Shown: in pieces, positions 3,106 to 62,076 of the stretch
Position numbering within the stretch: position 1 is the first letter of the stretch
How the letters are laid out: every line of letters starts with the position of its first letter
Source of the DNA: a virus
Length of the DNA: 62,076 bases
Direction: 5' to 3' (one strand)
IMG/VR virus record: IMGVR_UViG_3300023235_000025
Program-made: the position numbers and the translations under genes
The notes under the pieces: model-generated
Databases searched by the model: none
What the model was told of the DNA's origin: nothing
The model's input: the letters and a program-made list of their open reading frames with translations, nothing else

Positions 3106-3522
3106 ATGGCAGGAGTTAATAAAGTAATACTATTAGGACATCTCGGTAAAGATCCAGAGGTTAAGCATTTAGAAGGGGATAATGTAGTTGCCAACCTCAC
3201 ACTGGCAACATCCGAATCCTACAAAGATAAGTCGGGTAATAAAGTAGACACTACCGAGTGGCATGATCTGGAACTATGGGACGGTCAGGCCCGGGTGGCA
3301 GAGCAATATTTGAAAAAAGGCAGCCAGATCTATGTGGAGGGTAAGATCAAGACCGATTCTTGGAAAGATGATCAAGGCAACAATCGAAAAAGAACCAAGG
3401 TCAGAGTCATTTCTTTCACCATGCTCGGAGGGGGACAATCTAACCAGTCTACCCCAAGCAAGCCTAAAGAGCCAGACATAAATACTACCACGGACGATGA
3501 GAGTGATGCACTCCCCTTCTGA
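3106..3522 (+). CDS. ssb: Single-stranded DNA-binding protein
   Basis: OB-fold signature NKVILLGHLGKDPE...TEWHDLELWDGQA...IYVEGKI, a Gly/Ser/Pro linker and an acidic C-terminal tip DDESDALPF. Confidence 0.9.
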   Translation: MAGVNKVILLGHLGKDPEVKHLEGDNVVANLTLATSESYKDKSGNKVDTTEWHDLELWDGQARVAEQYLKKGSQIYVEGKIKTDSWKDDQGNNRKRTKVRVISFTMLGGGQSNQSTPSKPKEPDINTTTDDESDALPF

Positions 3523-5414: not shown

Positions 5415-6282
5415 TAAGATTTTAGACTTTAGCAAATGGCTATGCCGAGCATCGCAGTCATCGAAATTAATGACCGGAACCCTGGGGATAACTAGCAATC
5501 AAGAAGCAACCCTTCAAAAGCTAGAGGATAAAATTGCATCAGGAAAACCCCTCACTCCCCTACAGGAAATTGAATACAATAAGCTCTTGTGTTCTAAAGC
5601 CGATAGGAGTCTTCCCAAAACCGCACAATCCTATTTAAGGGCTGAACATAGGGAAATGAAGTATGATCGAATCTTCCTGTTTACAAATAAGTACACCCAA
5701 AAGGGAATACTTCAAGAAGATGAAAGTATAACGCTACTATCGAATCATTTAGGTGTTCCTCTATTTAAAAACGAAGAGAGAAGAGAGAATAAATTCTTTA
5801 CTGGATTACCAGATCTTACTCCTAAGATTATCAAGCACGGAATAGACGTAAAGTCATCATGGGAATTAGGCACTTTTCCTTACGATGGCGACCCTCTTGA
5901 TCCGGTTTATGAGTCTCAAAATCAGGTTTACATGAATCTTTGGGATTGTGACAGATGGGACACCGTTTACTGCTTAGTGAATGCCACCGATCAAATGGTT
6001 TATAATGAGAAGCAAAAATTCTATTATGCGCTAGGGCAGCCAGATTTAGAAGATCCAATCTATATAGGAATCTGCAAGGAAATTGAAAAGAAAATGATCT
6101 TCGATAAGAAACGTTTCGATGATGCCTACCCTATGTTTAATTGGGATACAGAAGATTGGACTTACGATATCCCAGAAGAAGATAGAGTTGTTTCCTTTAC
6201 CTCAATCAGAAACGATGAATACGTAAAAGAAATGGAAGAAAGGGTTGTTGTTGGCAGGGAATACTTGAAATCATTAAAATAA
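5407..6282 (+). CDS. PD-(D/E)XK exonuclease, YqaJ/lambda-Exo-like
   Basis: N-terminal CRASQSSKLMTG resembles YqaJ. Catalytic-like motif LPD...x10...IDVKSS. Confidence 0.5.
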   Translation: MSSKILDFSKWLCRASQSSKLMTGTLGITSNQEATLQKLEDKIASGKPLTPLQEIEYNKLLCSKADRSLPKTAQSYLRAEHREMKYDRIFLFTNKYTQKGILQEDESITLLSNHLGVPLFKNEERRENKFFTGLPDLTPKIIKHGIDVKSSWELGTFPYDGDPLDPVYESQNQVYMNLWDCDRWDTVYCLVNATDQMVYNEKQKFYYALGQPDLEDPIYIGICKEIEKKMIFDKKRFDDAYPMFNWDTEDWTYDIPEEDRVVSFTSIRNDEYVKEMEERVVVGREYLKSLK

Positions 6283-16300: not shown

Positions 16301-19300
16301 ATAAGGCTTTTTCAGACAAATTTAAATTGGACTTTCTTTCTCCTATTTCATTTAAGATTGATTCATACTCATTAAACACCTCATTAGGCACTATTTTTGG
16401 GTTTAATTTAAGCATTCTGTCCAGTGGGCTATTTGGAGATAATGTTCCAATTCTACCTTTTTTAACATTATTTTTAGCTGTAGCAATCTTAGATCTAGCT
16501 CCTTTTAACCTCTTTCTTGTTCCAGACTTAGCTATTACGTCAAAAATAGCATCAATAGCCTTATTGACTGATCTTTCTGTTTTGGCTTTGTTTAATTCAG
16601 TAACTATTTTGTTTATTTCGGACTTAGTAAAATCATCAAGAGGAGTGTCTTTTATATCATCTTTCACAAATTTGGTTACAATATTTTTCATTGCCTGAAC
16701 CTTATCTGATTTGTCCTTGGCTTTTTTACTAGCAACTTTTACTCCCTCTTTAAAACCTTCTTTTGCTGCTTTAACCCTGCTCCTGAGATCTTTTTTCATC
16801 TCGTTATACTCATTTACAGATGTGTCTTTTTCTTTTGATGGCTTTCCCTCAGTGGATTCCTTTATCTGCTGCTTGATAGATAACGGCTTTGCTTCTTTTT
16901 TTCTGGATTTAAGGGGTATTCCTTTGGTATCCTTTTTAGTTTCTGACAATCTAAATTTGCTAATACCTTCTATAGATTCATTATTTGGATTGCTTTTTGA
17001 CAAGTTATATATGTAAGATGACTTTATAGCATCAAAGTTTTCTATAAGTTTCTCTGACCCTATGTTATCTCTTATCCATTCTACTAATTGCTCAAATGTA
17101 TTAATTCCAAGTTTACCTGCTTTAACTATTATTTTACCAGCTATAGCTAATTGATCAGGAGAAACGCCACCAGACGTAAGATTATTTTTTCCAGCATCAA
17201 AAAAATCACTAAATAGATTAGTTATTTCTTCTTTAATTTCTTTTGATTTTTTTGATAGATCTTTCTTTTTTGGCTGTGTTTTTTCTGTTTTAGTGTTTTT
17301 ACTGTCAGTCAACTCTACAATATTATCAACCATTGCAGCAGGATATCTTCCTCTGTCTGGTGATTCTACAGACCCATCTTCATTAAGCCTACCTTCTATG
17401 AATTCCCCGAATAAAGTAAATCCTATTTTTGGCCTGGCGTCTTCCTTTTCAATTTTAGTTTCTTCGGGGATTACTTCCTCTGTTTTTTCAGGAATAATCT
17501 CTATTTTAACCTTTTCCTTGGGTTCTTTTTGAGGAACTTCTGGCTCTGGTATTTGCTCATCTTTAGACTGTTTCGACTGTTTAACTTCTTGCTTCTCTTG
17601 GTTCTTTAATTCGTAATCAGCTAATGATTTCGGCACAGTCACCCTTATTATTTCTTCTCCCTTATCATTTGTCCCCCTTGATGATACCCTATCTTTGAAA
17701 ACATCAGGGATTTCATCCTCTTTATTATAGGTGAATGTTACAAGATCTCCATTTATAGCTTCCTCATACTGCTGTTCATCTGATGGTTTGTCTACCTGAA
17801 CTTGTTCACTAACTCCTTCAACATCGGATTTTTCTCCACCATTTTCATTAACAGGAAGTTCCTTTCCTTCACCGTCTTGGCTATCTGCTGGTTTTGCTTC
17901 ATTCTCGGGTTCAATGATTGGTTCATCTTCTTTAGTGATTTCTTTTTTCTTTGCGACAACCGAGTAGTCAGTTTCAGCGTATGGGTCAGATTTGTTTGTG
18001 TTGTCAACTATCGAAAACTCCATGTTAGGGTATTTCTCAGACAATGCATCCACCTTAGAGTTAGCTTCTGCTTCACTCATCCCTTCCTCTACTGCCTCAA
18101 TAGTCCCGTCAGGGTTTTCAATAAAGTCCATTTCAGACTCATTTACTTGTAGTTTTTTAACACTGGTATTCTCTAAGTTTTCTACGCTCTCTTTTTTAGC
18201 TTCTTTTTTCTTTGCGACAACAAAGTAGCCAGTCTCAGCGTATGGGTCAGATTTGTTTGTGTTGTCAACTATCGAAAACTCCATGTTAGGGTATTTTTCA
18301 GACAATGCATCCACCTTAGAGTTAGCTTCTGCTTCACTCATCCCTTCCTCTACTGCCTCAATAGTCCCATCAGGCATTTCTATAAAGTCCATTTCGGACT
18401 CATTTACTTGTAGTGTTATAACACTGGTATTCTCTAAGTTTTCTACGCTCTCTTTTAATGATTCATTATTCTGATCAATGGATTTTATTTTTGACTCGAG
18501 CTCTTTTATAGACTTGTCTATAATATCCTTATTGGCGCCAGAGAAATTCCCTCTTCTTTTTGTTAGTGCGCTCATAGCGGTATTCATCAAGAAGCCTACC
18601 GTTCCGCCTATAGCGCCTTCCTCACCTACGCCATCAAGTATTTCCCTGTTGAAATCATAAATTCTTTGAGCTGACATATTAGCAAAGGTTGCTTGCCACA
18701 TCTCAGTAACCGCTTCCTCCGTAAACCCTACAGCTCCATCCTTGACTACGCTTAATATTTTGGCCCCGGGTTCTATTTTCTTGATCCTAGAGAACATACT
18801 TTGAACTGGAAGAGACTCCATTACAGATCCTACGATAAAGTTTTCTATGGCATATTGAAGAGCCTCGTCTTCTGTGGCCCCTGATTCAATAGCCTCTTTA
18901 TACATTGGTGCAGCCATTTGAGAACCGCCTATCAACCCCTGTTTAGAACCTACTCTGCTCAATACTTCTTTTCCTGCTTTTATATAAGGAGTTAGTTTTG
19001 TACCTTTAATTAGAGCTGTTTTTACTAATTGAGCGGTGCCCGATTGCCCTCCGGTTAAAACCATTGGTACTATTTGCCCTAATCCGGCAACTACCCCGCC
19101 TCCAAAAGTCTGTTCATCCCCTTCATTTACAGGGTAAAGCTCTTCTGTAAACTTCCTCCAATCGTCCGCTATTTTAAACGTTCCTATATCAGACGCTTTC
19201 AGCTCTTTATTTGCAGGTTTTCCAATAACAGGAACATTAGCTAATTGTCTCTCTGTAAAAGCACTAGCGATAGCCCACGCTTCTAATATGTCTGCTGGAG

Positions 19301-30982: not shown

Positions 30983-32526
30983 ACCCCTTCTTGTTCTAAT
31001 GATACATGAACTATTTCTTCACCTACTGTTTTATCCAATAGGATGAAGCAAAAGAAATTAGGTACTGTTGTGCTAATATTGACAGGATTAAACATTAAAA
31101 CCGCTTCTGAACCAAATGTAAAAGCACAGGCATCTATGTGTTTCATATAAGTAGTGGTTCCTCTTTTTGCATCCGTAAAGTCAAAGGTTATATTGCCTGT
31201 TATTGCTGTTGTGTCTATCCCCGAAATGTAATCAACATCAAATAATACTACTGAGCTTTCTCTGTTATCTGGCTCTCGTATAGCTATTAATGCACTTGCC
31301 TCTGCTTCACTTGCCTTTGTTGTCGCTATCCCTGCCTGAGTTGTGGCTGTGGATGCACTTGTGCCAGCGTTAGTTTCAGAAGTTGAAGCATTTGAAGCAC
31401 TTGTTGAAGCCTCCCCTGCTTTTGTTGTCGCTATCCCTGCCTGAGTTGTGGCTGTGGATGCACTTGTACCAGCGTTAGTTTCAGAAGTTGAAGCATTTGA
31501 AGCACTTGTTGAAGCCTCCCCTGCTTTTGTTGTCGCTATCCCTGCCTGAGTAGTAGCTGTTGTTGCGCTAGTATCCGCCTCACCTGCTTGCGTTGTCGCT
31601 ATCCCAGCTTGCGTTGTGGCGGTAGATGCTGAATTTGAAGCGGTAGTTGCGCTTGCGTCTGCCGAGATTGCTGAATTAATGGCCTCTAAATCTAATTCTG
31701 TGATTAATACATATATTTCATCTATTTCTTTTTTTACCGCAGAAGCTTCGCTTAGCACTCCCCCTCCCCAATTTGCTGTTAGCTGAGTGTATAAAGACGT
31801 TACCATGAAGTAGTCGTCCATTAACTCCCTCTGATTACCTTTAGAATTACTTAGCTTGTCTTTTACGTCATTAATTAAATTAACTAACTCAGAAACCGAA
31901 ATAAAAGCTCTAACATCAAAGCTAAAAGACTTTGATTGAATCCACTCTACACTATGGTCTGATGCTGTAAATAATACTGTAGAGGTTAATTCAGGCAGGT
32001 AGACGCCCTCGTAGGATTTACCTCCTGAAAGCATAAATATCTCGTTGGACGTAGTGGATATTACCTCTGTAACTCCTGATGATTCCGGAAAAGAGCATTC
32101 TACCTCCCTTGTTACGCTAGGGTTATACCCCTCATTAATATACTTAGTAACATCTAAGAATGATATGCTCGGAGTTGCTAAATTAGAATTATCACTCATG
32201 GCGAGTGACGGCTCAGAGAATGAAAGAGTGAACACCTTTTCTAACTCATAATCCCCTATATTCGTGTATGTTTTTTGAGTAATTGAATATTCACCCTGGA
32301 TTATTCCTTGTCTCAACCTCAAAGGAATAGAAGTTATTGCGTTTCCATTGCTAAAATCTGGGTTATTTTCATCAGTATTTTCAACAACAACCCCATCAGG
32401 GTAGATTATTCTATACTGTCCGTAATAAGTAGTTACACCAGAATAATTAGAAGTGTCTGTCAACACAAGACTTAACTCGTTACTAACTCTATCGATTAGG
32501 AATTTTATACTAAATTGTGGAGTCAC
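30979..32526 (-). CDS. Tail-fibre-like protein with Ala/Thr/Ser-rich 35-aa tandem repeats
   Basis: The unit [35 protein letters not shown] recurs. Confidence 0.7.
31321..31640. repeat. 105-bp tandem repeats (about 3 units) within the fibre gene
   Basis: Units start at 31321, 31426 and 31531, with a degenerate unit at 31594. Confidence 0.9.
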
Positions 32527-37090: not shown

Positions 37091-39334
37091 TTATTTTGAT
37101 TTGTTGTTATCCTTACTATTCTCCATTGCTTTTACTGCTTTTTTACCCTCATTTTCTAGTTCTTTTGTAAATGCTCTGCCAGCTTCTTTTATATCTGCTT
37201 CATTTATTCTTGTGGAGGATTTTAGTCTTTCGATCATAAAGTCAGCCTGTTTTTCTTCTCTTTGTAGCTGTGATTTAAGGCTGTATTCCAGTTTGATATT
37301 TTCCCTCTCCATTTCAGCAGTCATAGCGGCACTCTTCTGTTGCTCTTTTGAATTAGCTTCAATATTCTGCATGTCCCTGGCTTGCTTCTCACCTATATTC
37401 TTTTTGACCAGGAAGGCCAAGACCATGGCTTTTTCTTTTATATTATCAATAGTGTCAATGTAGGTGCTGTCTGCCACTGTTATTTGCCCAGAAGATTCAG
37501 CTAATTCTATCCTTCTATTGAGTACCGCTTTCTCTTCATCACTAGGCTTGTCTTCAAATTTAAGAGATAGTTCATGAGCGGTTATATCCCCTAGAGTTTT
37601 CCAGAAGCGTTCACTGTTTATCCCTAGCGCTTTTCTATACACTTTCTCCCCTGCCTCGAATGCATCTTGAAGCCTAATTACTAGACTGTCCGCTATATTT
37701 TCATTTAGGAATTTGGTGCCCTGAACTAAGTGATTCAAGGCGTTGGTTGTCGCTTGATAGGCTAGATTAGCGACCCCGTTTAGTGTTCTTGGATCAGGAG
37801 TGCTTCCGTCTGTTACCTCATTGAATCCTATATTATCCCTGAGTATCCCCATAAAACCATTCACGATTCCGACAAAGTTCGCAATCTCTGAAGCTACCTC
37901 GCTTCGGAGCTGTGTAATTGGTGGTCCACCCATAGGCTCTCCGTCTTCTCTCTTGGATCTATAAGCCATGTCCCCTCTCCTTTTATACATCTCAAGGGCT
38001 TTTCTTGGTACCCATTTTTCTCCATTGTGCCCCAGATTAAGATTTTCCAAAGCGGATAAATCGAAGGCTATCCCAGGAGGAACGGAATTAAGAAGTAGGT
38101 TCATTATTTTTAGCCACGCAATTTGTATTTGGTCAGCTACCGGGATCATTGATTCTATGACTCCGAAGAAATTCATCCTATCCTGCTCAGGAGCTATCAA
38201 ATGCCAAGAAAATGTTGTGTCTTTTGGGTTGTTTTTCGACCTTTTAATATTAGTGCACCGCCCATATTCAAAGATAAAATCAGTGTCAATTATCCACTTG
38301 CCTTTGTATAGGGTTTTTCGGCCATCTCTGACTATCTCACTTTTTTTGTCGGTTTTTCTATTGTAGTCTGTTTTATTGATTTTTTTATTCCCATGACTAT
38401 TGACCCTTTTTTCGTAGGCGGTTTCGTCAAAACTCTTTTTTTCAAACTCAAGAACAAGTATTTTATTATCGTCATTTACCCTCTCTCCATTCGCTGCATA
38501 TCTTCTTGCTCCACCCTTTTGCTTTAATATCTCCTCGATCTCCTCCTCATCGAACTCGCTAGAAGATCTAATATCTTCAATGCTATATGCTCTCACCTCC
38601 CCCATGTACGTAGCATCGGAGAAATCAAACTCCTCGCTGTAATCGCAAATGAACTCTTCCATATTTACATGGCGAATTCGTATCCTGTTGTTCTCGTCAA
38701 AATATTCACGGACACCGCCTACGCCAAAATCAAAAAGATCAGATTTTACCCTATTAAGTATTTGGTCGTATTTGTTGTTTGAGAAGACCATGTTAATTCC
38801 CTTCTCTGCCTCGACTGCTGCTACATGCTTGTAGGAATACTCTTGCTTTATTTTAACCTCTTCTAATGTTCGTGGATCGTCGTCTTTCAGATCGATCATT
38901 GATTCGATATTCGGAACGTCAGATAACTCTTCAAGCATCCTGATTTTTGCTTTCTGCTCGGCAAAGTAATCCTCTTCATCATCCCTAGCTATTGCATCTA
39001 TAGCGGTGGCAACAATGTTAAACCCAATTTTATTGATCTTTCCTAGTGCAATTTTTTTGAACTTAGGGATAATTGGAAGGATGGTGTAATCTAGCGGTTG
39101 AGTACTATCTGCTCGATGGCCGTTTGCGTCTAACGGATCAACTAAGTTTCTATACTTCTCTTCGGACTGCCTACCGTTGGCGTAATTCCTGTACTCTCTG
39201 AACTTTTGATTACCATGATAAAAGATTTTTGATGAAAAAGTCTTACTACTCCCCCATATAGCTTTTGCCGTAAGCAAGTGCCATTCCTTGTCTTTTTTTC
39301 TAGGATCTATTTCGTCTTTTGGAAAATTTATCAT
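37091..39334 (-). CDS. Portal protein
   Basis: 747 aa, immediately downstream of and overlapping the large terminase gene. Confidence 0.7.
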   Translation of the reverse strand: MINFPKDEIDPRKKDKEWHLLTAKAIWGSSKTFSSKIFYHGNQKFREYRNYANGRQSEEKYRNLVDPLDANGHRADSTQPLDYTILPIIPKFKKIALGKINKIGFNIVATAIDAIARDDEEDYFAEQKAKIRMLEELSDVPNIESMIDLKDDDPRTLEEVKIKQEYSYKHVAAVEAEKGINMVFSNNKYDQILNRVKSDLFDFGVGGVREYFDENNRIRIRHVNMEEFICDYSEEFDFSDATYMGEVRAYSIEDIRSSSEFDEEEIEEILKQKGGARRYAANGERVNDDNKILVLEFEKKSFDETAYEKRVNSHGNKKINKTDYNRKTDKKSEIVRDGRKTLYKGKWIIDTDFIFEYGRCTNIKRSKNNPKDTTFSWHLIAPEQDRMNFFGVIESMIPVADQIQIAWLKIMNLLLNSVPPGIAFDLSALENLNLGHNGEKWVPRKALEMYKRRGDMAYRSKREDGEPMGGPPITQLRSEVASEIANFVGIVNGFMGILRDNIGFNEVTDGSTPDPRTLNGVANLAYQATTNALNHLVQGTKFLNENIADSLVIRLQDAFEAGEKVYRKALGINSERFWKTLGDITAHELSLKFEDKPSDEEKAVLNRRIELAESSGQITVADSTYIDTIDNIKEKAMVLAFLVKKNIGEKQARDMQNIEANSKEQQKSAAMTAEMERENIKLEYSLKSQLQREEKQADFMIERLKSSTRINEADIKEAGRAFTKELENEGKKAVKAMENSKDNNKSK

Positions 39335-41367
39335 TGATACATGGGGAATATTTCAGAAATTTCCGTAATTTCCTCTTTATTTGCAACTTTTTGTTTCCTT
39401 ATTCTATCTGCCGCTATCAAACAAATGCCGGAACTCATGGATAAATCGAACTTTGTAGTGTTCGTTATATCAAATTTCAACCAATCAGTCACAAGCTCAG
39501 GGAAATCTACTTGATCTATACAATCTTCGATGTATTCTCTCGTGTGATTAACTATCGAATCGTGAGTCTGATCAGTAGTAGGTATTCCAGGTTCTTTTCT
39601 GTCAGGAAGATGGACCATAAAGTTAGATAGATTTAACCGAAATGGGTTTGACCACTCGAAATATTGAATGATCCCTTTTTTATTATCCTCCATTAGTATT
39701 TGGCACCCGAAGAACCACGCTATTTTTAGAGTGTCCTCATAAAATATTGATGGCTTTTTTGGCCTGAAGCAATAAACCAGTACAAATTTGTCCGATTTAT
39801 TTGGATTCATTGCATCAAACTTATAGAAAAGTACTGTTGATCCATTAGACTTTCGATTATCAACCGTTGTTTTATTATCGAAAGGGTCATTACCGCCTAT
39901 GAACTTGGCTTTATTTCTGGGTACAGGCTTGCTTCCAGCGACCTCTACATTATTCCATTCACCGCTATTGTAATCTACATCTTTGTGTAGTTTAAAATTC
40001 CCGTTCTTAGTGGGGACAAACTTAACCCCCTGCTTAATATCATCAGGGTCTATCCATCTAAGGTCTCCAACTACATACTTAGGGTCTAAAATAGAAAGAA
40101 CATCATACCTGTTCTCTAGCTTCTCTACATCATACTGGCAATCTGTAGACTTTGGCCTGAAGGCGTCTTTAATAGATAATGGGTACTTCCTCTTGTAATC
40201 CGATACGTCTTTTTGATTGTCTTTAAAACCATCAATAGTATTTTGAATAGTTTGAATGTTTTTCGCCCGGTCAGCATTTCCGTATTTATCAAGACTTCTT
40301 GTATCTGCTGCGCTAATGAAATACCTGTACAGCCCGGTAGTTGTGTGCCCGTTTCCGTCTCTATTTGCTGGGTCTGAGTCTTTCCAGAACTTCTCATAAG
40401 TTTCTAATTCTTTAGCTACTTCCTCCACGGTAGAAGTACAAAATTCTTTACCTATTATCCTTCCGGTCATGTTATCCACAAGACACTCTCTGACTACTTT
40501 GTGCCTGTCGTAGATATTTACCTCTTCGGTTTTGAATGCTTCATCAATCAAAATAGCCTGTACTTTTTCTCCATCGACTGCGTAAACTCCAGAGTTCCGG
40601 TAATCAATGCTAGACTCTAATTCTTCCTCAAAATCTTCTACGTTTATATTTTTACCTTTCCTAGAGGTGTGATAGAATCTTATTTCTGATTTTGGTATAG
40701 TTCCTGAACTCGTATCGAATACCGGCCTGAAAAAATGAGGAACCTTTCTGAAACACGACACAACCCCTTTTGAAAAAACCTTTTTAGCGTCGGCACCTGT
40801 CTTGCTCTGTATTGTTCCAAAAGCATTTTTCATTCTGCTTATTGGATCGTAAACGCATATTCCTCCGACGTAAGTTTTCCCGCTTCTACGAGGCCCAACC
40901 TCTACTCTTCCAAAACAACATGGATCATCCACCACATATTTTATATGGTAGAATCTATTCCTATCAAAGTTAAAATAACTTGGTAAACCAACATCTATTC
41001 TCCAATGTGTCAGGTAAAACCAATGAAGCCCCGTTATATAAGTGGCTACCCCATTATTCATGAACCAGAATCCATTTAGCCTTTTAAACCATTGCTCTTG
41101 CCTATAGGACTCGCATTCCTCTATGATAAAATCAGGGTTCTCAGTATTTAAAATAACCCTCTCTTCTTCCCTTCTTTTCTTTTTATACCATTCGGGTTCT
41201 TTTTCTGGCTCCCAATACTGGTCTTTCTTGCTTCTTGACCTTGAAAAAACACCCGTCTTTACCCATTTTTCAGTAAAATGATCCCACACGACTCCCTCTG
41301 GGGGAACCCACCCTGCTAATCCTTCTTGAAGATCTATGGGTGTTGCGTCTGGATGTTTTCTATACAT
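39331..41367 (-). CDS. terL: Terminase large subunit
   Basis: Walker A VGPRRSGKTYVGG. Walker B-like AILIDEAF. 678 aa, first gene of the structural operon. Confidence 0.85.
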   Translation of the reverse strand: MYRKHPDATPIDLQEGLAGWVPPEGVVWDHFTEKWVKTGVFSRSRSKKDQYWEPEKEPEWYKKKRREEERVILNTENPDFIIEECESYRQEQWFKRLNGFWFMNNGVATYITGLHWFYLTHWRIDVGLPSYFNFDRNRFYHIKYVVDDPCCFGRVEVGPRRSGKTYVGGICVYDPISRMKNAFGTIQSKTGADAKKVFSKGVVSCFRKVPHFFRPVFDTSSGTIPKSEIRFYHTSRKGKNINVEDFEEELESSIDYRNSGVYAVDGEKVQAILIDEAFKTEEVNIYDRHKVVRECLVDNMTGRIIGKEFCTSTVEEVAKELETYEKFWKDSDPANRDGNGHTTTGLYRYFISAADTRSLDKYGNADRAKNIQTIQNTIDGFKDNQKDVSDYKRKYPLSIKDAFRPKSTDCQYDVEKLENRYDVLSILDPKYVVGDLRWIDPDDIKQGVKFVPTKNGNFKLHKDVDYNSGEWNNVEVAGSKPVPRNKAKFIGGNDPFDNKTTVDNRKSNGSTVLFYKFDAMNPNKSDKFVLVYCFRPKKPSIFYEDTLKIAWFFGCQILMEDNKKGIIQYFEWSNPFRLNLSNFMVHLPDRKEPGIPTTDQTHDSIVNHTREYIEDCIDQVDFPELVTDWLKFDITNTTKFDLSMSSGICLIAADRIRKQKVANKEEITEISEIFPMYQ

Positions 41368-41384
41368 ATACCTACTGCTTTCTA

Positions 41385-41392
41385 CAAATATA
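41385..41392 (-). promoter_or_regulatory. -7 box TATATTTG (TAnnTTTG) for the structural operon
   Basis: Reverse complement of caaatata. Lies 17 nt upstream of the terL ATG. Confidence 0.5.
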
Positions 41393-41415
41393 GTAGGAAT
41401 GTTTAGAATTATAAT

Positions 41416-41423
41416 TATATTTG
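41416..41423 (+). promoter_or_regulatory. -7 box TATATTTG for the plus-strand arm
   Basis: Exact TAnnTTTG match in the divergent intergenic region. Confidence 0.5.
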
Positions 41424-41461
41424 TCTTATAGGCTCTTTTTCAATTAAGAACTCTATAGTAA

Positions 41462-41493
41462 AGCGAAGAGGTTTTCTGGTTTTCCTCTTCGCT
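41462..41493 (+). other. 10-bp perfect hairpin in the putative 5' leader
   Basis: AGCGAAGAGG, a 12-nt loop, then CCTCTTCGCT. Confidence 0.7.
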
Positions 41494-41526
41494 CTTTATC
41501 CTAAAAACCACAAAATCAGAAATCAG

Positions 41527-41721: not shown

Positions 41722-41873
41722 GCATCGAAACTGAAAACAAAAGCGGATGGATGCCTGTAAAACTATTCGCTAAAAAGAAGGAAGTGACTATTCAAGCTGT
41801 CTATCAGGCAATAAAAAGAGGTTCCTACGAAAGTAAAAGGACCGAAGGGTATCCTGTAATGGTAAGAGAGTAA
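41718..41873 (+). CDS. Small helix-turn-helix protein (excisionase/AlpA-like)
   Basis: 51 aa: WMPVKLFAKKKEVTIQAVYQAIKRGSY. ATGA overlap with the upstream ORF. Confidence 0.5.
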   Translation: MSIETENKSGWMPVKLFAKKKEVTIQAVYQAIKRGSYESKRTEGYPVMVRE

Positions 41874-41918
41874 TTTTTTTTAATTAAATTGTTTAAAATT
41901 TTAAACCAGTAAATAAAT

Positions 41919-42280: not shown

Positions 42281-43456
42281 ATGACGAAACTTAGTAATAA
42301 TATTTTTTTGAGCGATGGCAAATTAGGCCATAGCCTAAAACACGGATCTCTTTTCTCTGGAATAGGTGGTTTTGATTTAGCAGCTCAATGGATGGGATGG
42401 GAGAATATCTTCCATTGCGAATGGAACGAGTTTGGTCAAAAAATACTAAAACATTACTGGCCTAAAGCAATATCTTATGAAGACATTACCAAAACAGACT
42501 TCTCTATTCATAGAGGAAAAATCGACATCCTTACAGGAGGTTTCCCCTGCCAACCTTATTCATCAGCAGGTAAAAGACTTGGTAAGGAAGACGATAGACA
42601 TCTCTGGCCGCAAATGCTTAGAGCAATTCGAGAGATTCAGCCCAGGTATATCGTGGGAGAAAACGTTTATGGACTCACTAATTGGAATGGAGGATTGGTT
42701 TTCAACGAGGTGCAAACTGACTTGGAAAATGAAGGGTACAAAGTACAACCGTGTATTCTTCCAGCTGCTGCCGTCAACGCTCCCCATAGAAGAGATAGAG
42801 TTTGGTTTGTGGCCTACGCCAACGAGCGTACAACAGGACCATCCCGAACGAGTGGAAAAACTGAAAGCGACTGGAGCAAAAACAATGATGAGCAGAGCTG
42901 CGGGAGAAAACAGACCGAACAGCATAATAGATGCAGCAATGTTTTACAACTTACTTCCAACCCCAGTAGTAATGGACACAAATTGCGGAGACCTGGAGAA
43001 AATAGACAAACGAAGAGAGAGAGCAAAAGCAAAGGGGATAAACGGGAACGGCTTTGGAATGACGATTGGCGAAATGGCAAACAGGAAAATGTTACCGACA
43101 CCTGCAATGAGAGATTACAAAGGAGGAAACTCGATGGAACACTTGACAAGAAAGCCAAAAAGCAAAGGGAACAGCCATCAGGATCAGCTACCGAACGCCA
43201 TCAAATTACAGACTGGGAGCAATGGCCAACTCAATCCCCAATTTGTGGCCGAAATGATGGGTTTTCCAACCAACTGGACGGAATTACCTTTCCTAAATGG
43301 CGACAAGAATCAATTAAAGGATATGGAAACGCAATAGTACCGCAAGTTGCATATCAAATCTTTAAAGCTCTTATGGCAACGGAAGCAAAAGAAGGGAGAA
43401 AAAAAATATTATTACGGGCTGATAAACACGAACCTTCAAGTTTAGCACAAACTTAG
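42281..43456 (+). CDS. dcm: DNA (cytosine-5)-methyltransferase (frame A)
   Basis: Motif I LFSGIGGFD, motif IV GGFPCQPYS, motif VI VGENV, motif VIII PHRRDRVWFVAY, motif X GYGNAIVPQVA. The interior of about 150 codons is low complexity. Confidence 0.85.
   Translation: MTKLSNNIFLSDGKLGHSLKHGSLFSGIGGFDLAAQWMGWENIFHCEWNEFGQKILKHYWPKAISYEDITKTDFSIHRGKIDILTGGFPCQPYSSAGKRLGKEDDRHLWPQMLRAIREIQPRYIVGENVYGLTNWNGGLVFNEVQTDLENEGYKVQPCILPAAAVNAPHRRDRVWFVAYANERTTGPSRTSGKTESDWSKNNDEQSCGRKQTEQHNRCSNVLQLTSNPSSNGHKLRRPGENRQTKRESKSKGDKRERLWNDDWRNGKQENVTDTCNERLQRRKLDGTLDKKAKKQREQPSGSATERHQITDWEQWPTQSPICGRNDGFSNQLDGITFPKWRQESIKGYGNAIVPQVAYQIFKALMATEAKEGRKKILLRADKHEPSSLAQT
42477..43337 (+). CDS. Nested +1-frame ORF (286 codons) with MTase target-recognition/motif-IX-like sequence
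   Basis: LWPTPTS, LLPTPVVMD, MLPTPAMRDYKGG and LNPQFVAEMMGFPTNWTEL, lying entirely inside the dcm ORF. Status unresolved: separate product, frameshift segment or split enzyme. Confidence 0.45.
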   Translation: MKTLPKQTSLFIEEKSTSLQEVSPANLIHQQVKDLVRKTIDISGRKCLEQFERFSPGISWEKTFMDSLIGMEDWFSTRCKLTWKMKGTKYNRVFFQLLPSTLPIEEIEFGLWPTPTSVQQDHPERVEKLKATGAKTMMSRAAGENRPNSIIDAAMFYNLLPTPVVMDTNCGDLEKIDKRRERAKAKGINGNGFGMTIGEMANRKMLPTPAMRDYKGGNSMEHLTRKPKSKGNSHQDQLPNAIKLQTGSNGQLNPQFVAEMMGFPTNWTELPFLNGDKNQLKDMETQ

Positions 43457-43761: not shown

Positions 43762-43844
43762 TTGTTGCTAACTCGTTTATAAACGCATTACACAATTCAA
43801 CACATCAAAAAATCAAATCTTAAATTCAATAGAAAAACCAGATG
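43761..43844 (+). repeat. Diverged third copy of the 80-bp upstream module
   Basis: attgttgctaactcgtttataaacgcattacac...cttaaattcaatagaaaaaccagATG aligns with 8968-9047 and 60735-60814 at roughly 70% identity by eye. Confidence 0.6.
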
Positions 43845-44564
43845 GCTTTAAAATTCAGTACAATAAACCACGATTACAGAAAAGAGAACAATATTTCATG
43901 CAACGAATATGTGTTGTGTGACATGATTTATTTTCTTTCAAGACATCCAAACTCAAAACATCCAGGATGGTGCTATATGTCCCGACAGAGGATGGCAGAT
44001 GAAATGGGAGTGTCAAAGGTGGCTACCATAGGAATGATTTCTAGATCGGAAGAAAAAGGGCTAGTTTACAAAGACCCTGACACTAAGTTTTTAAAAACTA
44101 CTTCCAAATGGAATGAATGTTATGGATTACCTGATTTAAAAGACTCGGTAAAGAAAGTTAACCAGCAATCGGTAAAGAAACTTAACCGAGGTGGTAAAGA
44201 AAGTTTACCGATTATCGGTAAAGAAAGTTTACCCTATATTAAAGATATTAATATTAATAATGATATAAAGCAAATTTCTAATGAGAAATCTTTGGAAGAA
44301 ATTGAAAAAGAGAAGCACAATGACATTTTCAGGTCAATGTTCTCCAGTCAGATGTGGATAGAATCGCTCTCTATGAGGTGGAAAAAGAATGTAAAAGAGG
44401 TTCAAGCACACGTAGATGTATTTAGAAGGGATTGTATTGATAAAGGGGATTACAAAAAGACAGAAAAGGACGCCAAATCACACTTTGTTAATTGGACAGA
44501 GAAAGTAAGCCCTATCTCATCGGTAACTAAAAGAGTAATATTTAAAGGAAATAACAATGAGTAA
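43842..44564 (+). CDS. Putative replication initiator (winged-helix N-terminus) containing the iteron array
   Basis: 240 aa. wHTH-like MSRQRMADEMGVSKVATIGMISRSEEKGLV. Lies directly upstream of and overlaps dnaB. Internal peptide repeats are encoded by the iterons. Confidence 0.6.
   Translation: MALKFSTINHDYRKENNISCNEYVLCDMIYFLSRHPNSKHPGWCYMSRQRMADEMGVSKVATIGMISRSEEKGLVYKDPDTKFLKTTSKWNECYGLPDLKDSVKKVNQQSVKKLNRGGKESLPIIGKESLPYIKDININNDIKQISNEKSLEEIEKEKHNDIFRSMFSSQMWIESLSMRWKKNVKEVQAHVDVFRRDCIDKGDYKKTEKDAKSHFVNWTEKVSPISSVTKRVIFKGNNNE
44146..44233. repeat. Four 18-bp iterons YGGTAAAGAAASTTWACC
   Basis: Copies start at 44146, 44170, 44192 and 44216 (spacings 24/22/24). Copies 3 and 4 are palindromic, GGTAAA-N5-TTTACC. 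An AT-rich tract follows at 44234-44290. Confidence 0.85.
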
Positions 44565-45975
44565 TAACCAGTTAGGTAAAATACCTCCGCAGTCAGTCGA
44601 GATGGAAGAGGCTGTATTGGCAGCCTTGATGCTAGATAAAGACGCCATAGTTCCAGTTTTGAGTATTTTAGCTCCAGAAAAGTTCTATAAAGATGCCCAT
44701 TGCATTATTTACAAATCTATAATGCAATTATTTACAGCTGGAGAACCGATTGACTTACTAACCGTTGTCAATAAATTGAGAAAAAACGGAGAGTTAGAAA
44801 TCGCTGGTGGTGTAATCTATATAACCGAATTAACCTCAAAGGTTTCTTCTGCTGAAAACATTGAATATCATTCCAGGATAATTGCCGAGCAGTCAATGAG
44901 AAGGATGATAATATCCATGGCATCAAAAGCTCAAGCATCTGCCTACTCCGAAGAAGAAGACGTATTTGAATTGATAGATAAAATATCTTCCGATGTTTTA
45001 AATATTAGTTCATCTGTAAACGAAACTAAATCCAAAACAGTAAGAAGTATTATTCCTTCAGTTATAGAAGCTATTAAAAAGGCTTCTGAAGATGATAATA
45101 ACCTGACGGGTATTGATACCGGATACCCTTTAGTTAATCAACTTACGGGAGGATGGCAAGATACTAACCTAATTATAATAGCGGCTAGGCCGAGTATAGG
45201 TAAAAGTGATCTAGCTATCAACCTCACGGTTAATGCAGCTATAACAGGTAAAAAAGTGGCCTTATTCAGCTTAGAGATGTCAGACACCGAACTGGTCAAG
45301 CGAATAATATCAATAACTACTGAGTTATATAAGAATAAAATAAAAAGAGGGAACCTAACGCCGGAGGATTGGTCTCAGATAATGAAAATGAGGACAGAAG
45401 TGCTTGATAATATAATCATCCAGGATGATCACTCATTGACAACGAGTCAGCTTCGTGGAATATGCAAGAATTTAAAGCTAAAGCATGGGATTGATATGGT
45501 GGTTCTGGATTACTTACAGCTCATGTCCGGCGTTAAAAAAGGAGGCAATAGGGAGAATGAAGTAACTGAGATAAGCAGAGCATGTAAGGTTGTTGCTGGA
45601 GATATTAAAGTTCCGCTTATAGCGCTGTCTCAATTATCAAGAGCGGTAGAAAATAGAGGTGGAGATAAAAGGCCAATACTAGCTGATTTGAGAGAGTCAG
45701 GGGCCATTGAAAACGATGCGAATTTGGTTATATTCCCATATAGAGCTGAGAAATATGGTATAACCCAAGATGAAGACGGCAATTCCACTATTAACATAAT
45801 GGAACTTATATTCGCAAAACATAGAGATGGTGAATTAGGAAGTATTCCAACGAGGTATCTCCCGTCAATTGGGAAGATTTATAGCATTGGAGAAAACACA
45901 GAAGACCACCCCAAATACAACCCAGACAAATTCACCTCTTCTGGGCAGAATGATTTTGATGAGCCTAAATTTTAA
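44557..45975 (+). CDS. dnaB: Replicative DNA helicase DnaB
   Basis: N-terminal PPQSVEMEEAVLAALMLD. Walker A ARPSIGKSD. DYLQLM. SQLSRAVE. 472 aa. Confidence 0.92.
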   Translation: MSNNQLGKIPPQSVEMEEAVLAALMLDKDAIVPVLSILAPEKFYKDAHCIIYKSIMQLFTAGEPIDLLTVVNKLRKNGELEIAGGVIYITELTSKVSSAENIEYHSRIIAEQSMRRMIISMASKAQASAYSEEEDVFELIDKISSDVLNISSSVNETKSKTVRSIIPSVIEAIKKASEDDNNLTGIDTGYPLVNQLTGGWQDTNLIIIAARPSIGKSDLAINLTVNAAITGKKVALFSLEMSDTELVKRIISITTELYKNKIKRGNLTPEDWSQIMKMRTEVLDNIIIQDDHSLTTSQLRGICKNLKLKHGIDMVVLDYLQLMSGVKKGGNRENEVTEISRACKVVAGDIKVPLIALSQLSRAVENRGGDKRPILADLRESGAIENDANLVIFPYRAEKYGITQDEDGNSTINIMELIFAKHRDGELGSIPTRYLPSIGKIYSIGENTEDHPKYNPDKFTSSGQNDFDEPKF

Positions 45976-49375: not shown

Positions 49376-49684
49376 ATGAGCGACGACCAAAAATTAGAAT
49401 TAGGAATTGAAATAGTGGCAGCAATGAAAGCCACTTGTTACACTTCTTGGGACATTGAAACAGGCAGGATTGATGCCCTGATGGAAACCGAGACCGATAG
49501 AATGGAGGGGGTAACGAAGGAAGATTGGGACGATTTCACCCCCCAGCAGAAGAAAAGGTTTAAAATGTTCTGTGAGTCAGAGAAGAGAATACTACACAAG
49601 CAAGCTTTATTCGTAGCAGGGGCGGCTATTAAAAAGTATCAGGAGATTTTCACTAAAAACAACTCTAAAAATAATAAAGGATGA
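49376..49684 (+). CDS. Hypothetical protein
   Basis: 102-aa ORF. Confidence 0.5.
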   Translation: MSDDQKLELGIEIVAAMKATCYTSWDIETGRIDALMETETDRMEGVTKEDWDDFTPQQKKRFKMFCESEKRILHKQALFVAGAAIKKYQEIFTKNNSKNNKG

Positions 49685-50298
49685 AGGTACTGAGCTTAAA
49701 AATACTGGTAGGATGCGAAGAAAGTCAAGCGGTAACGGTAGAGCTTAGAAAACGTGGACACGAAGCGTATTCTTGTGACTTACAAAACTGTAGTGGAGGA
49801 CGTCCTGAATGGCACTTAAAAATGGATGTGCTTAAGGCTATAGAGTTAAAAGAGTGGGATATAGGGATATTCTTCCCTGATTGCACCTACCTAACCATAA
49901 GCGCCAATAAATGGTATAAAGACATGCCACCCAGAAAAAGCGGTGTTTTGGTCGGGGCAAAAAGGAGAGAAGCGAGAGAAAAGGCTATTGAGTTCTTTTT
50001 AAGGTTGTATAATTCAAAAATACCTAAAATAGCTATAGAAAACCCGATAGGAGTAATGAGTTCTAGGTTTAGAAAGCCGGATCAGGTATTGCAGCCATGG
50101 ATGTTTGGTCATGGGGAAACTAAAGCAACCTGTTTATGGCTTAAAAACTTACCAATATTAGAGCCTACCAATATAGTGGATGGTAGGTATCCAAGAATTC
50201 ATTTACTCCCAAACATAAAAGACAGAGCAAAACTTAGAAGCAAAACTTACCAAGGAATCGCAGAAGCAATGGCTTCTCAATGGACTTTAAATTCATAA
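49681..50298 (+). CDS. Dcm-fold-like small protein (putative DNA-modification family, function unproven)
   Basis: 205 aa. ILVGCEESQ in place of motif I, FFPDCTYLT resembles the PC motif IV, IENP resembles motif VI, and the C-terminus reads RSKTYQGIAEAMASQW. Confidence 0.5.
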   Translation: MKVLSLKILVGCEESQAVTVELRKRGHEAYSCDLQNCSGGRPEWHLKMDVLKAIELKEWDIGIFFPDCTYLTISANKWYKDMPPRKSGVLVGAKRREAREKAIEFFLRLYNSKIPKIAIENPIGVMSSRFRKPDQVLQPWMFGHGETKATCLWLKNLPILEPTNIVDGRYPRIHLLPNIKDRAKLRSKTYQGIAEAMASQWTLNS

Positions 50299-50436: not shown

Positions 50437-50928
50437 ATGACAAATAAACTAATACTCGGTGATTGCTTGGAAAAGATGAAAATGATCCCAGACGGAAGTA
50501 TAGACTTAGTGTTCTCAGATCTACCGTATGGGAAAACAAAAAATAAATGGGACGTCGTTATAGATCCAGTCAAGCTTTGGGTAGAAGTGTGGAGGGTGGC
50601 CAAACCAAACGCAGCCGTATTATTTTTTGGACAGGATAAGTTTTCGGCAATGATGATGCTGAGCGACCCTAATCATCGATATAATATTATATGGGAAAAG
50701 ACCACAGTAACAAACCCCTTCAATGCTAAAAAGATGCCTATGAGGTGCCATGAAGATATAATGGTATTCTACAGGTCTTTACCAACCTATAATCCCCAAA
50801 TGACCCACGGGCACCAAAGAAAGGTATCATCAGCGATACATAAAAGGAATAGCAAGAAAACCACAAACTACGGGGATCATAAAGCCACCTCTTACGATAG
50901 TACCTCCAGATACCCTAGGAGTGTATAA
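50437..50928 (+). pseudogene. Truncated beta-class DNA methyltransferase (N-terminal half only)
   Basis: Motif IV DLVFSDLPYG and ...SRYPRSV are followed by a stop. The AdoMet-binding half (HPTQKP...FxGSGTT) is absent from all three downstream frames. Confidence 0.7.
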
Positions 50929-56644: not shown

Positions 56645-57160
56645 ATGAAACTACAACCATTAAATAAAACCGCTCTTTCTAGTCAATTGTATAATTTGAC
56701 AGGAAAATTTTTATCAGGTAGGGACTTTATCAGAAATGATGATGAAGTCATAGAAATAAGCACAGGGAAAAAATTCTATCTTCCAACACAAGAAGAGGAA
56801 GAGATTTTTAAAGCTGAGGAAGCCATCCGGCAAGAAGAGGAGAAAAAAGGAAAAAAACATAGACACGATAATAAAACCTATCCTTTTATTGATTATTTCA
56901 ACCATAAAAGATGGGTTACGGGACTTGATCACGCAAAAACAAAAGGATTTCCGAAAACAGAAATGTGTAAAGATTCTTATTGGCACTTTTTGGAATGCGT
57001 TCCACCAAAGAGAATGCATAAAGGTGCTTTTATATGTGGGGAGCCCTACACCCATAACGGACAAGGGGAAGCCATTTATTTGTGTGGAATTAAGGAAGGA
57101 AATAAATACTTTGCTAAGTACGGAACATTAAAACAATTTGATTCAAATAAACTATTTTAA
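56645..57160 (+). CDS. Hypothetical protein
   Basis: 171-aa ORF. Confidence 0.5.
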   Translation: MKLQPLNKTALSSQLYNLTGKFLSGRDFIRNDDEVIEISTGKKFYLPTQEEEEIFKAEEAIRQEEEKKGKKHRHDNKTYPFIDYFNHKRWVTGLDHAKTKGFPKTEMCKDSYWHFLECVPPKRMHKGAFICGEPYTHNGQGEAIYLCGIKEGNKYFAKYGTLKQFDSNKLF

Positions 57161-57164
57161 AACT

Positions 57165-57890
57165 ATGAAATACTCATTGAGACAAGATTTAGAAGCCTTA
57201 TCAATAGAAGGAAACAAAGCGTTTTTACCAAAAGAACCTTTAAGCGATTACGCAGAGTTAAAAAAAGCACTAACAAAGGCATGTGGTAAATACAAAAGCA
57301 ATTCATTTGAATTTCCCTATCCTGCAAAAGCAGTAATTGAATCGCTGAAAACCGGAAAAGTGATTGATTTCAAAAAAGAATTTCAATTATTTCATACAGA
57401 CAAGCCAGTAGCGGGGCAAATGATGAATGAAATTATCGGATACCCGAAAACCATATTAGAACCAAGCGCAGGACATGGGCACTTAATTGATGAATTAATA
57501 GCAGTATATCCCGATTCAAAAATTGATGCCGTGGATCTTTCAGAGTTAAATTTCTCGATTCTTAAAGATAAATACAAGGACAATCCAAATATAAACCTGA
57601 TACATGGCGACTACCTGGATTTTGTGCCCGGTAAAAAATATGATTTAATTTTTGCTAACCCTCCATTTAGTAAAAATCAAGACATAGACCATGTTTTAAA
57701 AATGGTTTCTGAAAAAGAGGATCAAGGGCAAATAATATCTATAATGTCTACATCCTGGACGTTTGGAAATCAAAAAAAGCAGGTGGAATTTAGGGAATTC
57801 GCAGAGGAAAATTTCATAATACGAACCAATGAAAACGGGGCGTTTAAATCTTCTGGTACAATGGTCAGTACTGTTTTAATAACAGGTTAA
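57165..57890 (+). CDS. N6-adenine DNA methyltransferase, gamma-class
   Basis: Motif I ILEPSAGHGHL precedes motif IV IFANPPFS. ATG at 57165, after the upstream stop. Confidence 0.85.
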   Translation: MKYSLRQDLEALSIEGNKAFLPKEPLSDYAELKKALTKACGKYKSNSFEFPYPAKAVIESLKTGKVIDFKKEFQLFHTDKPVAGQMMNEIIGYPKTILEPSAGHGHLIDELIAVYPDSKIDAVDLSELNFSILKDKYKDNPNINLIHGDYLDFVPGKKYDLIFANPPFSKNQDIDHVLKMVSEKEDQGQIISIMSTSWTFGNQKKQVEFREFAEENFIIRTNENGAFKSSGTMVSTVLITG

Positions 57891-61921: not shown

Positions 61922-62076
61922 ATGGCACAAGACACAAGAAATTTAAAATTATCAAACGTAAAATCAGTTGAAAATATATCTGACGAGTGGGTTGATTTGT
62001 GGCAACAAGTTGAGTTATGGTATGGAGACATTCAGAAAAAAGAGACTGGACAGCAGCTATTGGAAAGGCTTCAATC
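61922..62076 (+). CDS. 5' part of the wrap-around 61-aa hypothetical ORF
   Basis: ATG at 61922. Continues in frame into 1..158. Confidence 0.5.
   Translation, partial: MAQDTRNLKLSNVKSVENISDEWVDLWQQVELWYGDIQKKETGQQLLERLQ
61950..62076. repeat. Terminal overlap, identical to 1-127
   Basis: Same comparison as for 1-127. Confidence 0.95.

What the first reader, a model, noticed from the sequence alone, without database searches (positions are those of the whole stretch)
44146..44290. Candidate replication origin: four palindromic iterons plus an AT-rich tract inside the initiator gene
Four 18-bp repeats (consensus YGGTAAAGAAASTTWACC) start at 44146, 44170, 44192 and 44216, spaced about two helical turns apart. 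Copies 3 and 4 are GGTAAA-N5-TTTACC palindromes. A very AT-rich stretch follows (ctatattaaagatattaatattaataatgatataaag). All of this lies inside the wHTH gene immediately upstream of dnaB. That is the lambda O/ori arrangement, where the initiator gene contains its own binding sites.
Basis: partly seen in the sequence, partly recalled or inferred. Interest (0 to 1): 0.62.

Follow-up and report, generated by a model that had tools for sequence, protein, structure and literature searches.

The report
Phage replication origin inside initiator gene
An uncultured 62-kb phage carries what is most likely its replication origin (four protein-binding repeats plus an easily melted AT-rich stretch) inside the gene of its own initiator protein, as phage lambda does; the layout is well known, but the initiator family is large and undescribed.

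Summary
Four 17/18-bp repeats lie at 44146, 44170, 44192 and 44216, where 0.38 would be expected by chance. A 40-bp tract of 88% AT follows them directly. All of this sits inside a 240-aa winged-helix gene that overlaps dnaB by 8 nt.

The interpretation, a lambda O/ori-type origin, is strongly supported by comparison.
- All homologous genes examined (about 24) carry the same layout at the same place.
- The repeats are constrained as DNA, not as peptide. They are read in two frames, use a single codon per residue, and leave the base just outside the 17-mer free.
- The two half-sites change together.
- Base 4 of the repeat changes together with residue 60 of the predicted recognition helix (Arg with G; Gln, Val or Pro with A).
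- The AT tract is the least stable duplex of the whole genome.
- The element falls in the part of the gene that codes for a disordered linker.

Origin activity and protein binding are inferred, not shown. GC skew is compatible but confounded by gene orientation, and read-coverage data were not available.

This is a new member of a known kind. The scan has found the same arrangement before on other DNA. The protein is not a lambda O homologue, and the family has no relative among cultured phage records.

The parts
43842..44564 (+). Initiator gene (240 aa): N-terminal winged helix-turn-helix (aa 10-95), disordered linker (aa 97-149), helical C-terminal domain DUF7833 (aa 151-221)
   Evidence: ORF. 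Pfam DUF7833 at E 4.4e-12, 46.2 bits against a cut-off of 24.3. Weak PHROG matches to DnaD-like loader, replication initiation protein and replisome organizer. AF2 model. Foldseek hits: MarR/SlyA-type wHTH in PDB; replisome organizer and replication initiator proteins of uncultured phages in BFVD.
44016..44054 (+). Codes for the predicted recognition helix (aa 59-71, KVATIGMISRSEE). Codon 60 (Val, 44019-44021) is the position that co-varies with iteron base 4.
   Evidence: Helix H59-71 in the AF2 model. Covariation table. Contingency 85/24 concordant against 3 discordant, and 6 of 6 independent pairs concordant.
44146..44163 (+). Iteron 1, CGGTAAAGAAAGTTAACC. Imperfect dyad, translated as SVKKVN (frame +2 relative to iterons 3 and 4).
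   Evidence: Identical in relative L001.
44170..44187 (+). Iteron 2, CGGTAAAGAAACTTAACC. Imperfect dyad, translated as SVKKLN.
44192..44209 (+). Iteron 3, TGGTAAAGAAAGTTTACC. Perfect GGTAAA-N5-TTTACC dyad, translated as GKESLP.
44216..44233 (+). Iteron 4, CGGTAAAGAAAGTTTACC. Perfect dyad, translated as GKESLP; directly abuts the AT-rich tract.
44234..44273 (+). AT-rich tract (88% AT), the candidate DNA-unwinding element; translated as YIKDININNDIKQ.
   Evidence: AT 0.88 against 0.63 for the genome; least stable 30-, 40- and 60-bp window of the whole genome. The equivalent tract is 78-95% AT in all 16 relatives.
44557..45975 (+). Phage-encoded DnaB-type replicative helicase. Its start overlaps the initiator stop by 8 nt, so the two genes are probably translationally coupled.
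   Evidence: Pfam DnaB_C 2e-79 and DnaB 3.2e-30. phrog_19 at 3e-106.
3106..3522 (+). Single-strand DNA-binding protein, an accessory replication gene of the same genome.
   Evidence: phrog_44 at E 1.9e-44.

Best explanation
This is the phage's origin of theta-type replication, built like ori-lambda.

Proposed sequence of events:
1. Early rightward transcription makes the initiator and, coupled to it, the phage DnaB helicase.
2. Initiator dimers bind through their winged-helix domains to the four dyad-symmetric 17-bp iterons (GGTAAA-N5-TTTACC, 22-24 bp apart, each with a central A-tract).
3. The resulting nucleoprotein complex strains the DNA and melts the adjoining 40-bp AT-rich tract, the least stable duplex of the genome.
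4. The helical C-terminal domain (DUF7833) brings in the phage DnaB encoded next door. No separate loader, primase or polymerase gene was found, so host primase and polymerase would then take over.

The element lies in the part of the gene that codes for a disordered interdomain linker. The DNA signal can therefore dictate the sequence, and the peptide (SVKKVN, GKESLP, Asn/Ile/Tyr-rich) is largely a by-product.

Shown here:
- the repeats and the AT tract are conserved as DNA;
- the half-sites co-vary with each other;
- the sites co-vary with residue 60 of the recognition helix.

Inferred: binding, melting, helicase recruitment and origin activity.
For: 1. The repeats are real and unique in the genome: 4 copies against 0.38 expected.

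2. All homologous genes with DNA in hand (about 24 distinct genes) have 2-6 copies of a GGTnnn-N5-nnnACC dyad at gene nt 286-400. None occur elsewhere in their loci. The last site is followed at once by 40 nt of 78-95% AT. The last two spacings are conserved at about 22 and 24 bp, whatever the reading frame.

3. The constraint is on DNA.
- The same 17-mer is translated in two frames in the window and in 8 other loci.
- In 12 non-redundant genes the in-frame iterons use only GGT (33/33), AAA (28/28), GAA (24/24), AGT (25/25), TTA (20/20), GCA (11/11) and CAA (9/9). The Pro codon, whose third base lies just outside the 17-mer, uses all four synonyms (12/5/7/7).
- Against a relative with 75% protein identity, the iterons are 72/72 identical while the rest of the gene is 72% identical, P about 8e-11. 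Substitutions fall in the spacers. The same holds for a 99% identical relative.

4. Dyad symmetry is kept by two-sided changes: position 4/14 is A-T in 8 site types and G-C in 6; position 5/13 is A-T in 10 and C-G in 4. Overall 92.7% of cells pair, against 8-44% when the partner is slid. At protein level the same rule holds in 106 of about 110 proteins.

5. Residue 60, the second residue of the predicted recognition helix, is Arg in the 24 family members whose iteron starts GGTG. It is Gln, Val, Pro or another residue in the 85 that start GGTA, with 3 doubtful exceptions. All 6 phylogenetically independent pairs on supported branches agree, p about 0.03.

6. The AT tract is the least stable 30-, 40- and 60-bp duplex of the 62-kb genome.

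7. The protein has the architecture of an initiator or replisome organizer. A DnaB gene follows directly in the window and in most relatives.

8. Iteron number varies between close relatives, 4 here against 6 in L003. Lambda and Stx phages differ in the same way, 4 against 6 (PMC7466680).
Against: - No functional data.
- The cumulative GC and AT skew minima are at 41,646 and 41,502, 2.6 kb upstream of the iterons. They sit at the divergent promoter region and not at the iterons. Skew here tracks gene orientation and cannot discriminate.
- Copies 1 and 2 are imperfect dyads.
- The tree behind the independent-pairs test rests on only 95 columns and a quick search.
- The link between the C-terminal domain and DnaB rests on gene adjacency only.
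Confidence: 0.8

Rival explanations
1. The origin lies elsewhere, for example in the divergent intergenic region 41368-41526 at the skew minimum. The in-gene sites then serve a secondary role of the same protein, such as copy control by handcuffing or autoregulation by roadblock.
For: The cumulative GC and AT skew minima are at 41.5-41.6 kb. That region is AT-rich and intergenic and is among the less stable stretches (41863-41880 and 41361-41382). MarR-like wHTH dimers are typically repressors.
Against: The skew turning points coincide exactly with the two gene-strand switches, so they are explained by transcription orientation. No iteron-like site occurs outside 44146-44233 in the whole genome, so the initiator has no predicted binding site at 41.4 kb. 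A pure operator would not need a conserved, directly abutting AT tract that is the least stable duplex of the genome.
Confidence: 0.1
2. The repeats are only a peptide repeat (GKESLP/SVKKVN) of a flexible linker, with no function as DNA.
For: The GKESLP-type peptide is repeated in most family members.
Against: The same DNA is read in two different frames within one gene. Only one synonymous codon is used at every repeat position, while the first base outside the 17-mer is free. The peptide positions co-vary by the reverse-complement rule (K with L, A with A, E with S, T with V), which has no protein-level rationale. The linker is predicted to be disordered.
Confidence: 0.02
3. The array is a packaging (pac) or partition (centromere-like) site bound by the wHTH protein.
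For: Some phages carry pac inside the small-terminase gene, and centromeres are arrays of repeats. Both statements rest on my own knowledge.
Against: The gene is coupled to dnaB and not to terminase or ParA genes. The terminase-like gene is at 39331-41367 on the other strand, and relative L013 has a separate Terminase_4 gene. Structural neighbours are replisome organizers and initiators. No partition ATPase was found.
Confidence: 0.03

Closest known systems
ori-lambda inside gene O of phage lambda and lambdoid/Stx phages (PMC5043065, PMC7466680)
   Same: Four dyad-symmetric initiator sites of about 18-19 bp, each with a central A-tract. They are followed directly by an A+T-rich region of about 40 bp. 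All of it lies in the middle of the initiator gene, between an N-terminal DNA-binding domain and a C-terminal helicase-recruiting domain. Iteron number varies between relatives (4 against 6) and adds residues to the protein.
   Different: There is no sequence homology to lambda O: no Phage_rep_O match. The phage encodes its own DnaB, and no P-like loader gene is seen. The host is probably a Bacteroidota bacterium, not an enterobacterium. A requirement for transcriptional activation is unknown.
Replisome organizers of Gram-positive phages (SPP1 G38P type; phrog_16706, DnaD-like phrog_186)
   Same: Two-domain wHTH plus helical C-terminal architecture, with the gene placed next to a helicase gene. 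Weak profile matches and structural matches to proteins annotated 'replisome organizer'. That SPP1 has an origin inside the organizer gene is from my own knowledge.
   Different: The matches are weak (E 1e-6 to 4e-3) and cover only parts of the protein. No loader gene lies between the organizer and the helicase.
Iteron plasmids (Rep_3 / RepA WH1-WH2 initiators: pPS10, F, R6K, P1)
   Same: An array of phased initiator sites next to an A+T-rich unwinding region.
   Different: [quoted passage not shown] Here the sites are dyads, implying dimers, and lie inside the gene. The protein has a single wHTH.

Membership tests
Lambda-type origin (ori inside the initiator gene) | Several repeated initiator-binding sites with internal dyad symmetry | tested here: met
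   Four 17/18-bp sites, two of them perfect GGTAAA-N5-TTTACC dyads. Dyad symmetry is kept by compensatory changes across the family.
Lambda-type origin (ori inside the initiator gene) | An A+T-rich unwinding region of about 40 bp directly beside the last iteron | tested here: met
   44234-44273 is 88% AT and is the least stable duplex of the genome. The tract is conserved in all relatives.
Lambda-type origin (ori inside the initiator gene) | [quoted passage not shown] | tested here: met
   Gene nt 305-432, which is aa 102-144, lies within the pLDDT<50 segment 97-149 between the wHTH and the C-terminal domain.
Lambda-type origin (ori inside the initiator gene) | The encoded initiator binds the iterons | not testable with these tools
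   Indirect support only: residue 60 of the recognition helix co-varies with iteron base 4 (Arg with G; Gln, Val or Pro with A). Of 112 proteins, 109 are concordant, and 6 of 6 independent pairs agree.
Lambda-type origin (ori inside the initiator gene) | Replication starts here (origin activity) | not testable with these tools
Skew is compatible but confounded by gene orientation.
Lambda O protein family (Pfam Phage_rep_O, PF04492) | Sequence match to the family profile | tested here: not met
   No match at E up to 0.1 for the window protein, and none among 18 family members at E up to 0.01.
DUF7833 (PF25200) | Profile match above the gathering score | tested here: met
   46.2 bits against a cut-off of 24.3, residues 166-220. 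Only 4 of 18 family members have it, so the C-terminal domain is exchangeable.
DnaD_N / HTH_36 winged-helix replication proteins | Profile match of the N-terminal domain | tested here: inconclusive
   DnaD_N in 6 of 18 members (best E 0.0013) and HTH_36 in 5 of 18 (best E 8e-6). The window protein itself has no match. The fold is wHTH.
Iteron-plasmid Rep proteins (Rep_3, WH1-WH2) | Direct-repeat iterons bound by monomers with two winged-helix domains; iterons outside the gene | tested here: not met
   The sites are dyads inside the gene. The model has one wHTH plus a helical domain. No Rep_3 match.

The most novel reading that the evidence does not exclude
The wHTH-plus-iteron module defines a very large, unannotated family of phage initiators. 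It has about 2,000 clusters at 50% identity and no member among 50,697 cultured phage records. In this family, origin specificity would be set by a simple readable code: residue 60 Arg reads G4/C14, and Gln, Val or Pro reads A4/T14. The initiator's exchangeable C-terminal domain would load a phage-encoded DnaB without any dedicated loader protein.
Probability: 0.3. Interest if true: 0.5.

Novelty: new member of a known kind. Interest (0 to 1): 0.38.

Why it matters
It places the replication origin and the initiator of an uncultured phage group (probably of Bacteroidota) that has no cultured relative and no annotation.

It also gives a natural covariation series between one recognition-helix residue and one base pair of the binding site. 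That series could be used to predict origin specificity and incompatibility among such phages, and to build replicons for hosts that are poorly tractable genetically.

Finally, it is a clear example of a DNA signal dictating the sequence of a protein linker, in two reading frames.

The principle itself has been textbook knowledge since lambda, so the conceptual gain is modest.

Tried and rejected
- tblastn of the window protein against cultured phage records found nothing. With relative P0019, only the C-terminal domain (DUF4373-type replication proteins) and one remote 27% match to a 'putative replication protein' appeared.
- Distant DNA search of 40-48 kb against phages matched only the methyltransferase gene.
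- No whole genome is held for this window.
- GC/AT skew was computed at coarse and single-base resolution. The turning points coincide with the gene-strand switches, so I rejected skew as a discriminating test.
- A profile search of the PDB by sequence gave only weak metalloregulator wHTH hits.
- NCBIfam gave nothing meaningful.
- A first stability scan had the sign inverted and was redone.
- Full-text searches found no paper on DUF7833 or on origins of this phage group.
- I considered the peptide-repeat, operator-only, pac and partition readings. The reasons for ranking them low are given under the rivals.

Full report
**Observation**

Four repeats are present:
- CGGTAAAGAAAGTTAACC at 44146
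- CGGTAAAGAAACTTAACC at 44170
- TGGTAAAGAAAGTTTACC at 44192
- CGGTAAAGAAAGTTTACC at 44216

Spacings are 24, 22 and 24 bp. The 17-mer core with up to three mismatches occurs four times in the 62-kb window, all here. Shuffles give a mean of 0.38, and 0 of 100 reach four. Tandem Repeats Finder reports it as the only short-period array of the window. Copies 3 and 4 are perfect GGTAAA-N5-TTTACC dyads. Copies 1 and 2 have TTAACC as their right arm.

The next 40 bp (44234-44273) are 88% AT, against 63% for the genome. The window ends in a 127-bp direct repeat, so the genome is a 61,949-bp circle.

**Setting**

The array lies in ORF 43842..44564 (240 aa), whose stop overlaps by 8 nt the start of a DnaB-type helicase gene at 44557..45975 (DnaB_C E 2e-79).

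An AlphaFold model built from 18 homologues shows three parts:
- a winged helix-turn-helix at residues 10-95, with the recognition helix at 59-71 and the wing strands at 75-77 and 84-86;
- a segment of very low confidence at 97-149;
- a helical C-terminal domain at 151-221, which matches Pfam DUF7833 (46.2 bits against a cut-off of 24.3).

Foldseek places the N-terminal domain among MarR/SlyA-type winged helices in the PDB. In the viral library the whole model matches uncultured-phage proteins annotated 'replisome organizer', 'replication initiator protein' or 'helix-turn-helix'. PHROG matches to DnaD-like loader, replication initiation protein and replisome organizer are weak, E 1e-6 to 4e-3.

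The iterons and the AT tract occupy gene nt 305-432, which is residues 102-144. That is precisely the disordered linker.

Elsewhere the genome encodes an SSB (3106-3522), an exonuclease (5407-6282) and an integrase-like protein (7074-8006). Among the ORFs scanned, no polymerase, primase or helicase loader was recognised.

**Comparative evidence**

The protein has 35 relatives in the word-indexed search. A profile search finds 1,967 clusters at 50% identity with E<0.001, of which 217 have E<1e-30. No close relative exists among 50,697 cultured phage records.

I obtained DNA for about 24 distinct homologous genes. Every one has the same layout:
- 2-6 copies of a 17-bp dyad GGTnnn-N5-nnnACC at gene nt 286-400;
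- none elsewhere in the locus;
- the last two spacings close to 22 and 24 bp;
- the last site followed at once by 40 nt of 78-95% AT, against locus means of 57-72%.

A DnaB gene follows directly in the window and in most relatives. In two relatives a PIF1/UvrD-type helicase follows instead or in addition.

**The constraint acts on DNA, not on the peptide**

1. Because the 22-bp spacing is not a multiple of three, the same 17-mer is translated as SVKKVN (copies 1 and 2) and as GKESLP (copies 3 and 4) within one gene. Eight other loci also have sites in two frames.

2. In 12 non-redundant genes the in-frame sites use one codon only for each residue: GGT 33/33, AAA 28/28, GAA 24/24, AGT 25/25, TTA 20/20, GCA 11/11 and CAA 9/9. 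Outside the sites GGT makes up 32% of Gly codons, AGT 23% of Ser codons and TTA 43% of Leu codons. The sixth codon (Pro), whose third base is the first base outside the 17-mer, uses CCG, CCC, CCA and CCT freely, at 12, 5, 7 and 7.

3. Against a relative with 75% protein identity, all 72 iteron positions are identical while the rest of the gene is 72% identical, P about 8e-11 under independence. The substitutions in the array fall in the spacers. A 99% identical relative differs within the array only at spacer positions.

**The sites are dyads read by the encoded protein**

Across the family the arms change on both sides together: GGTAAA/TTTACC, GGTGCA/TGCACC, GGTGAA/TTCACC and GTGCAA/TTGCAC.
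- Position 4/14 is A-T in 8 site types and G-C in 6.
- Position 5/13 is A-T in 10 site types and C-G in 4.
- 92.7% of cells are complementary, against 8-44% when the partner column is slid.

The same rule can be read from the peptide repeats of proteins for which I have no DNA. K pairs with L, E with S, A with A and T with V, and 106 of about 110 proteins are concordant at position 4/14.

The residue aligned with Val60, the second residue of the recognition helix after the conserved Lys59, follows the site. It is Arg in the 24 proteins whose site begins GGTG. It is Gln, Val, Pro or another non-Arg residue in the 85 whose site begins GGTA or GGTC. Three doubtful motif calls are discordant. The five GGTG-type loci with DNA in hand (L008, L010, L011, L017, L019) all have Arg.

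On a tree built without that column, each trait changes 21 times. The six independent pairs on supported branches all agree, p about 0.03. The tree is short (95 columns, quick search), so this is supportive rather than conclusive. Arg with guanine and Gln with adenine are the classical side-chain-base preferences (own knowledge).

**The AT tract**

By nearest-neighbour free energy, the stretch starting at 44234/44235 is the least stable 30-, 40- and 60-bp duplex of the entire genome. It lies in coding sequence, whereas most of the other top-ranked low-stability sites that I checked against the ORF map fall in gaps between ORFs. In relatives it is coded as Asn/Ile/Tyr-rich low-complexity peptide (NNNIYNNIYNN), that is, by the residues with AT-only codons.

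**Skew**

Cumulative GC skew has its minimum at 41,646 and its maximum at 12,207. AT skew gives 41,502 and 12,378. These are the only divergent and convergent gene-strand switches. An earlier scan note also describes 41368-41526 as the divergent control region.

The minimum is 2.6 kb from the iterons, and the maximum lies almost diametrically opposite. That is compatible with an origin at 41-44 kb. It is equally explained by transcription orientation, so I do not count it for or against.

**Mechanism proposed**

Initiator dimers bind the four dyads. The complex strains the DNA and opens the adjoining AT tract. The C-terminal domain recruits the phage DnaB, and the host primase and polymerase complete the replisome. 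Binding, opening and recruitment are inferred. DNA-level selection, dyad covariation and helix-site covariation are shown.

**Comparison with known systems**

Ori-lambda is described as four nearly perfect inverted 19-bp repeats that bind O dimers, followed by a 40-bp A+T-rich region, located within the O gene (PMC5043065). Stx phages have six iterons instead of four, which adds 13 residues to O (PMC7466680). Here the window has four iterons and the Lake Vida brine relative L003 has six.

The system therefore works like lambda's. It is not a member of the lambda O protein family, since there is no Phage_rep_O match. The N-terminal domain has only weak DnaD_N and HTH_36 similarity in some members. 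The C-terminal domain is exchangeable: DUF7833 occurs in 4 of 18 members, and P0019 carries a DUF4373-type replication domain instead.

Plasmid iteron systems differ. Their iterons are direct repeats bound by monomers and lie outside the gene (PMC5043065).

The scan has already reported origins inside initiator genes on other DNA. The kind is ordinary. What is new is this family and its covariation.

**Rivals**

- A peptide repeat without DNA function is contradicted by the frame and codon data.
- An operator-only role does not explain the conserved, abutting, maximally unstable AT tract or the replication-type architecture and neighbourhood.
- An origin at 41.4 kb has only the confounded skew in its favour, and no initiator site is predicted there.
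- A pac or partition role lacks the expected partner genes.

**Verdict**

It is a new member of a known kind and of moderate interest.

Noticed in passing
L003:379-1140 (Lake Vida brine contig) compared with window 44146-44233: A relative with 72% protein identity has six iterons instead of four: three extra-identical SVKKVNHQ units 24 bp apart. This copy-number variation matches lambda (4) against Stx phages (6).
   Followed up: partly
Family-wide: P0019/L015, L014, L018, L012, L016, L020: The wHTH-plus-iteron module is fused to different C-terminal domains: DUF7833 here, a DUF4373-type replication domain in P0019, and unknown domains elsewhere. The downstream gene also differs (DnaB, a PIF1/UvrD-like helicase, or unknown). 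This suggests modular exchange of the helicase-recruiting half.
   Followed up: partly
window 42281-43456 and 42477-43337: A 286-aa ORF in a second frame is nested in the C5-methyltransferase gene, and both frames look protein-like. The scan has already noted and followed this up (e1-3642672).
   Followed up: no
window 3106-3522, 4485-6282, 7074-8006: SSB, a phrog_3657 protein plus an exonuclease (possibly a recombination pair), and an integrase-like tyrosine recombinase. No polymerase, primase or helicase loader was recognised, so the phage probably depends on host replication enzymes and may be temperate.
   Followed up: partly
window 17940-18456 and 31312-31560: Long tandem repeats (261 bp x 2.0 at 95% identity; 105 bp x 2.4 at 97% identity) inside large minus-strand structural-arm ORFs.
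   Followed up: no
window 1-127 and 61950-62076: An exact 127-bp terminal direct repeat, the signature of a circular or circularly assembled 61,949-bp genome.
   Followed up: yes
window 1412-2266, 42281-43456, 49681-50298, 50437-50928, 57138-57890: At least five DNA-methyltransferase-like genes in one 62-kb phage genome (PHROG and Pfam matches).
   Followed up: no
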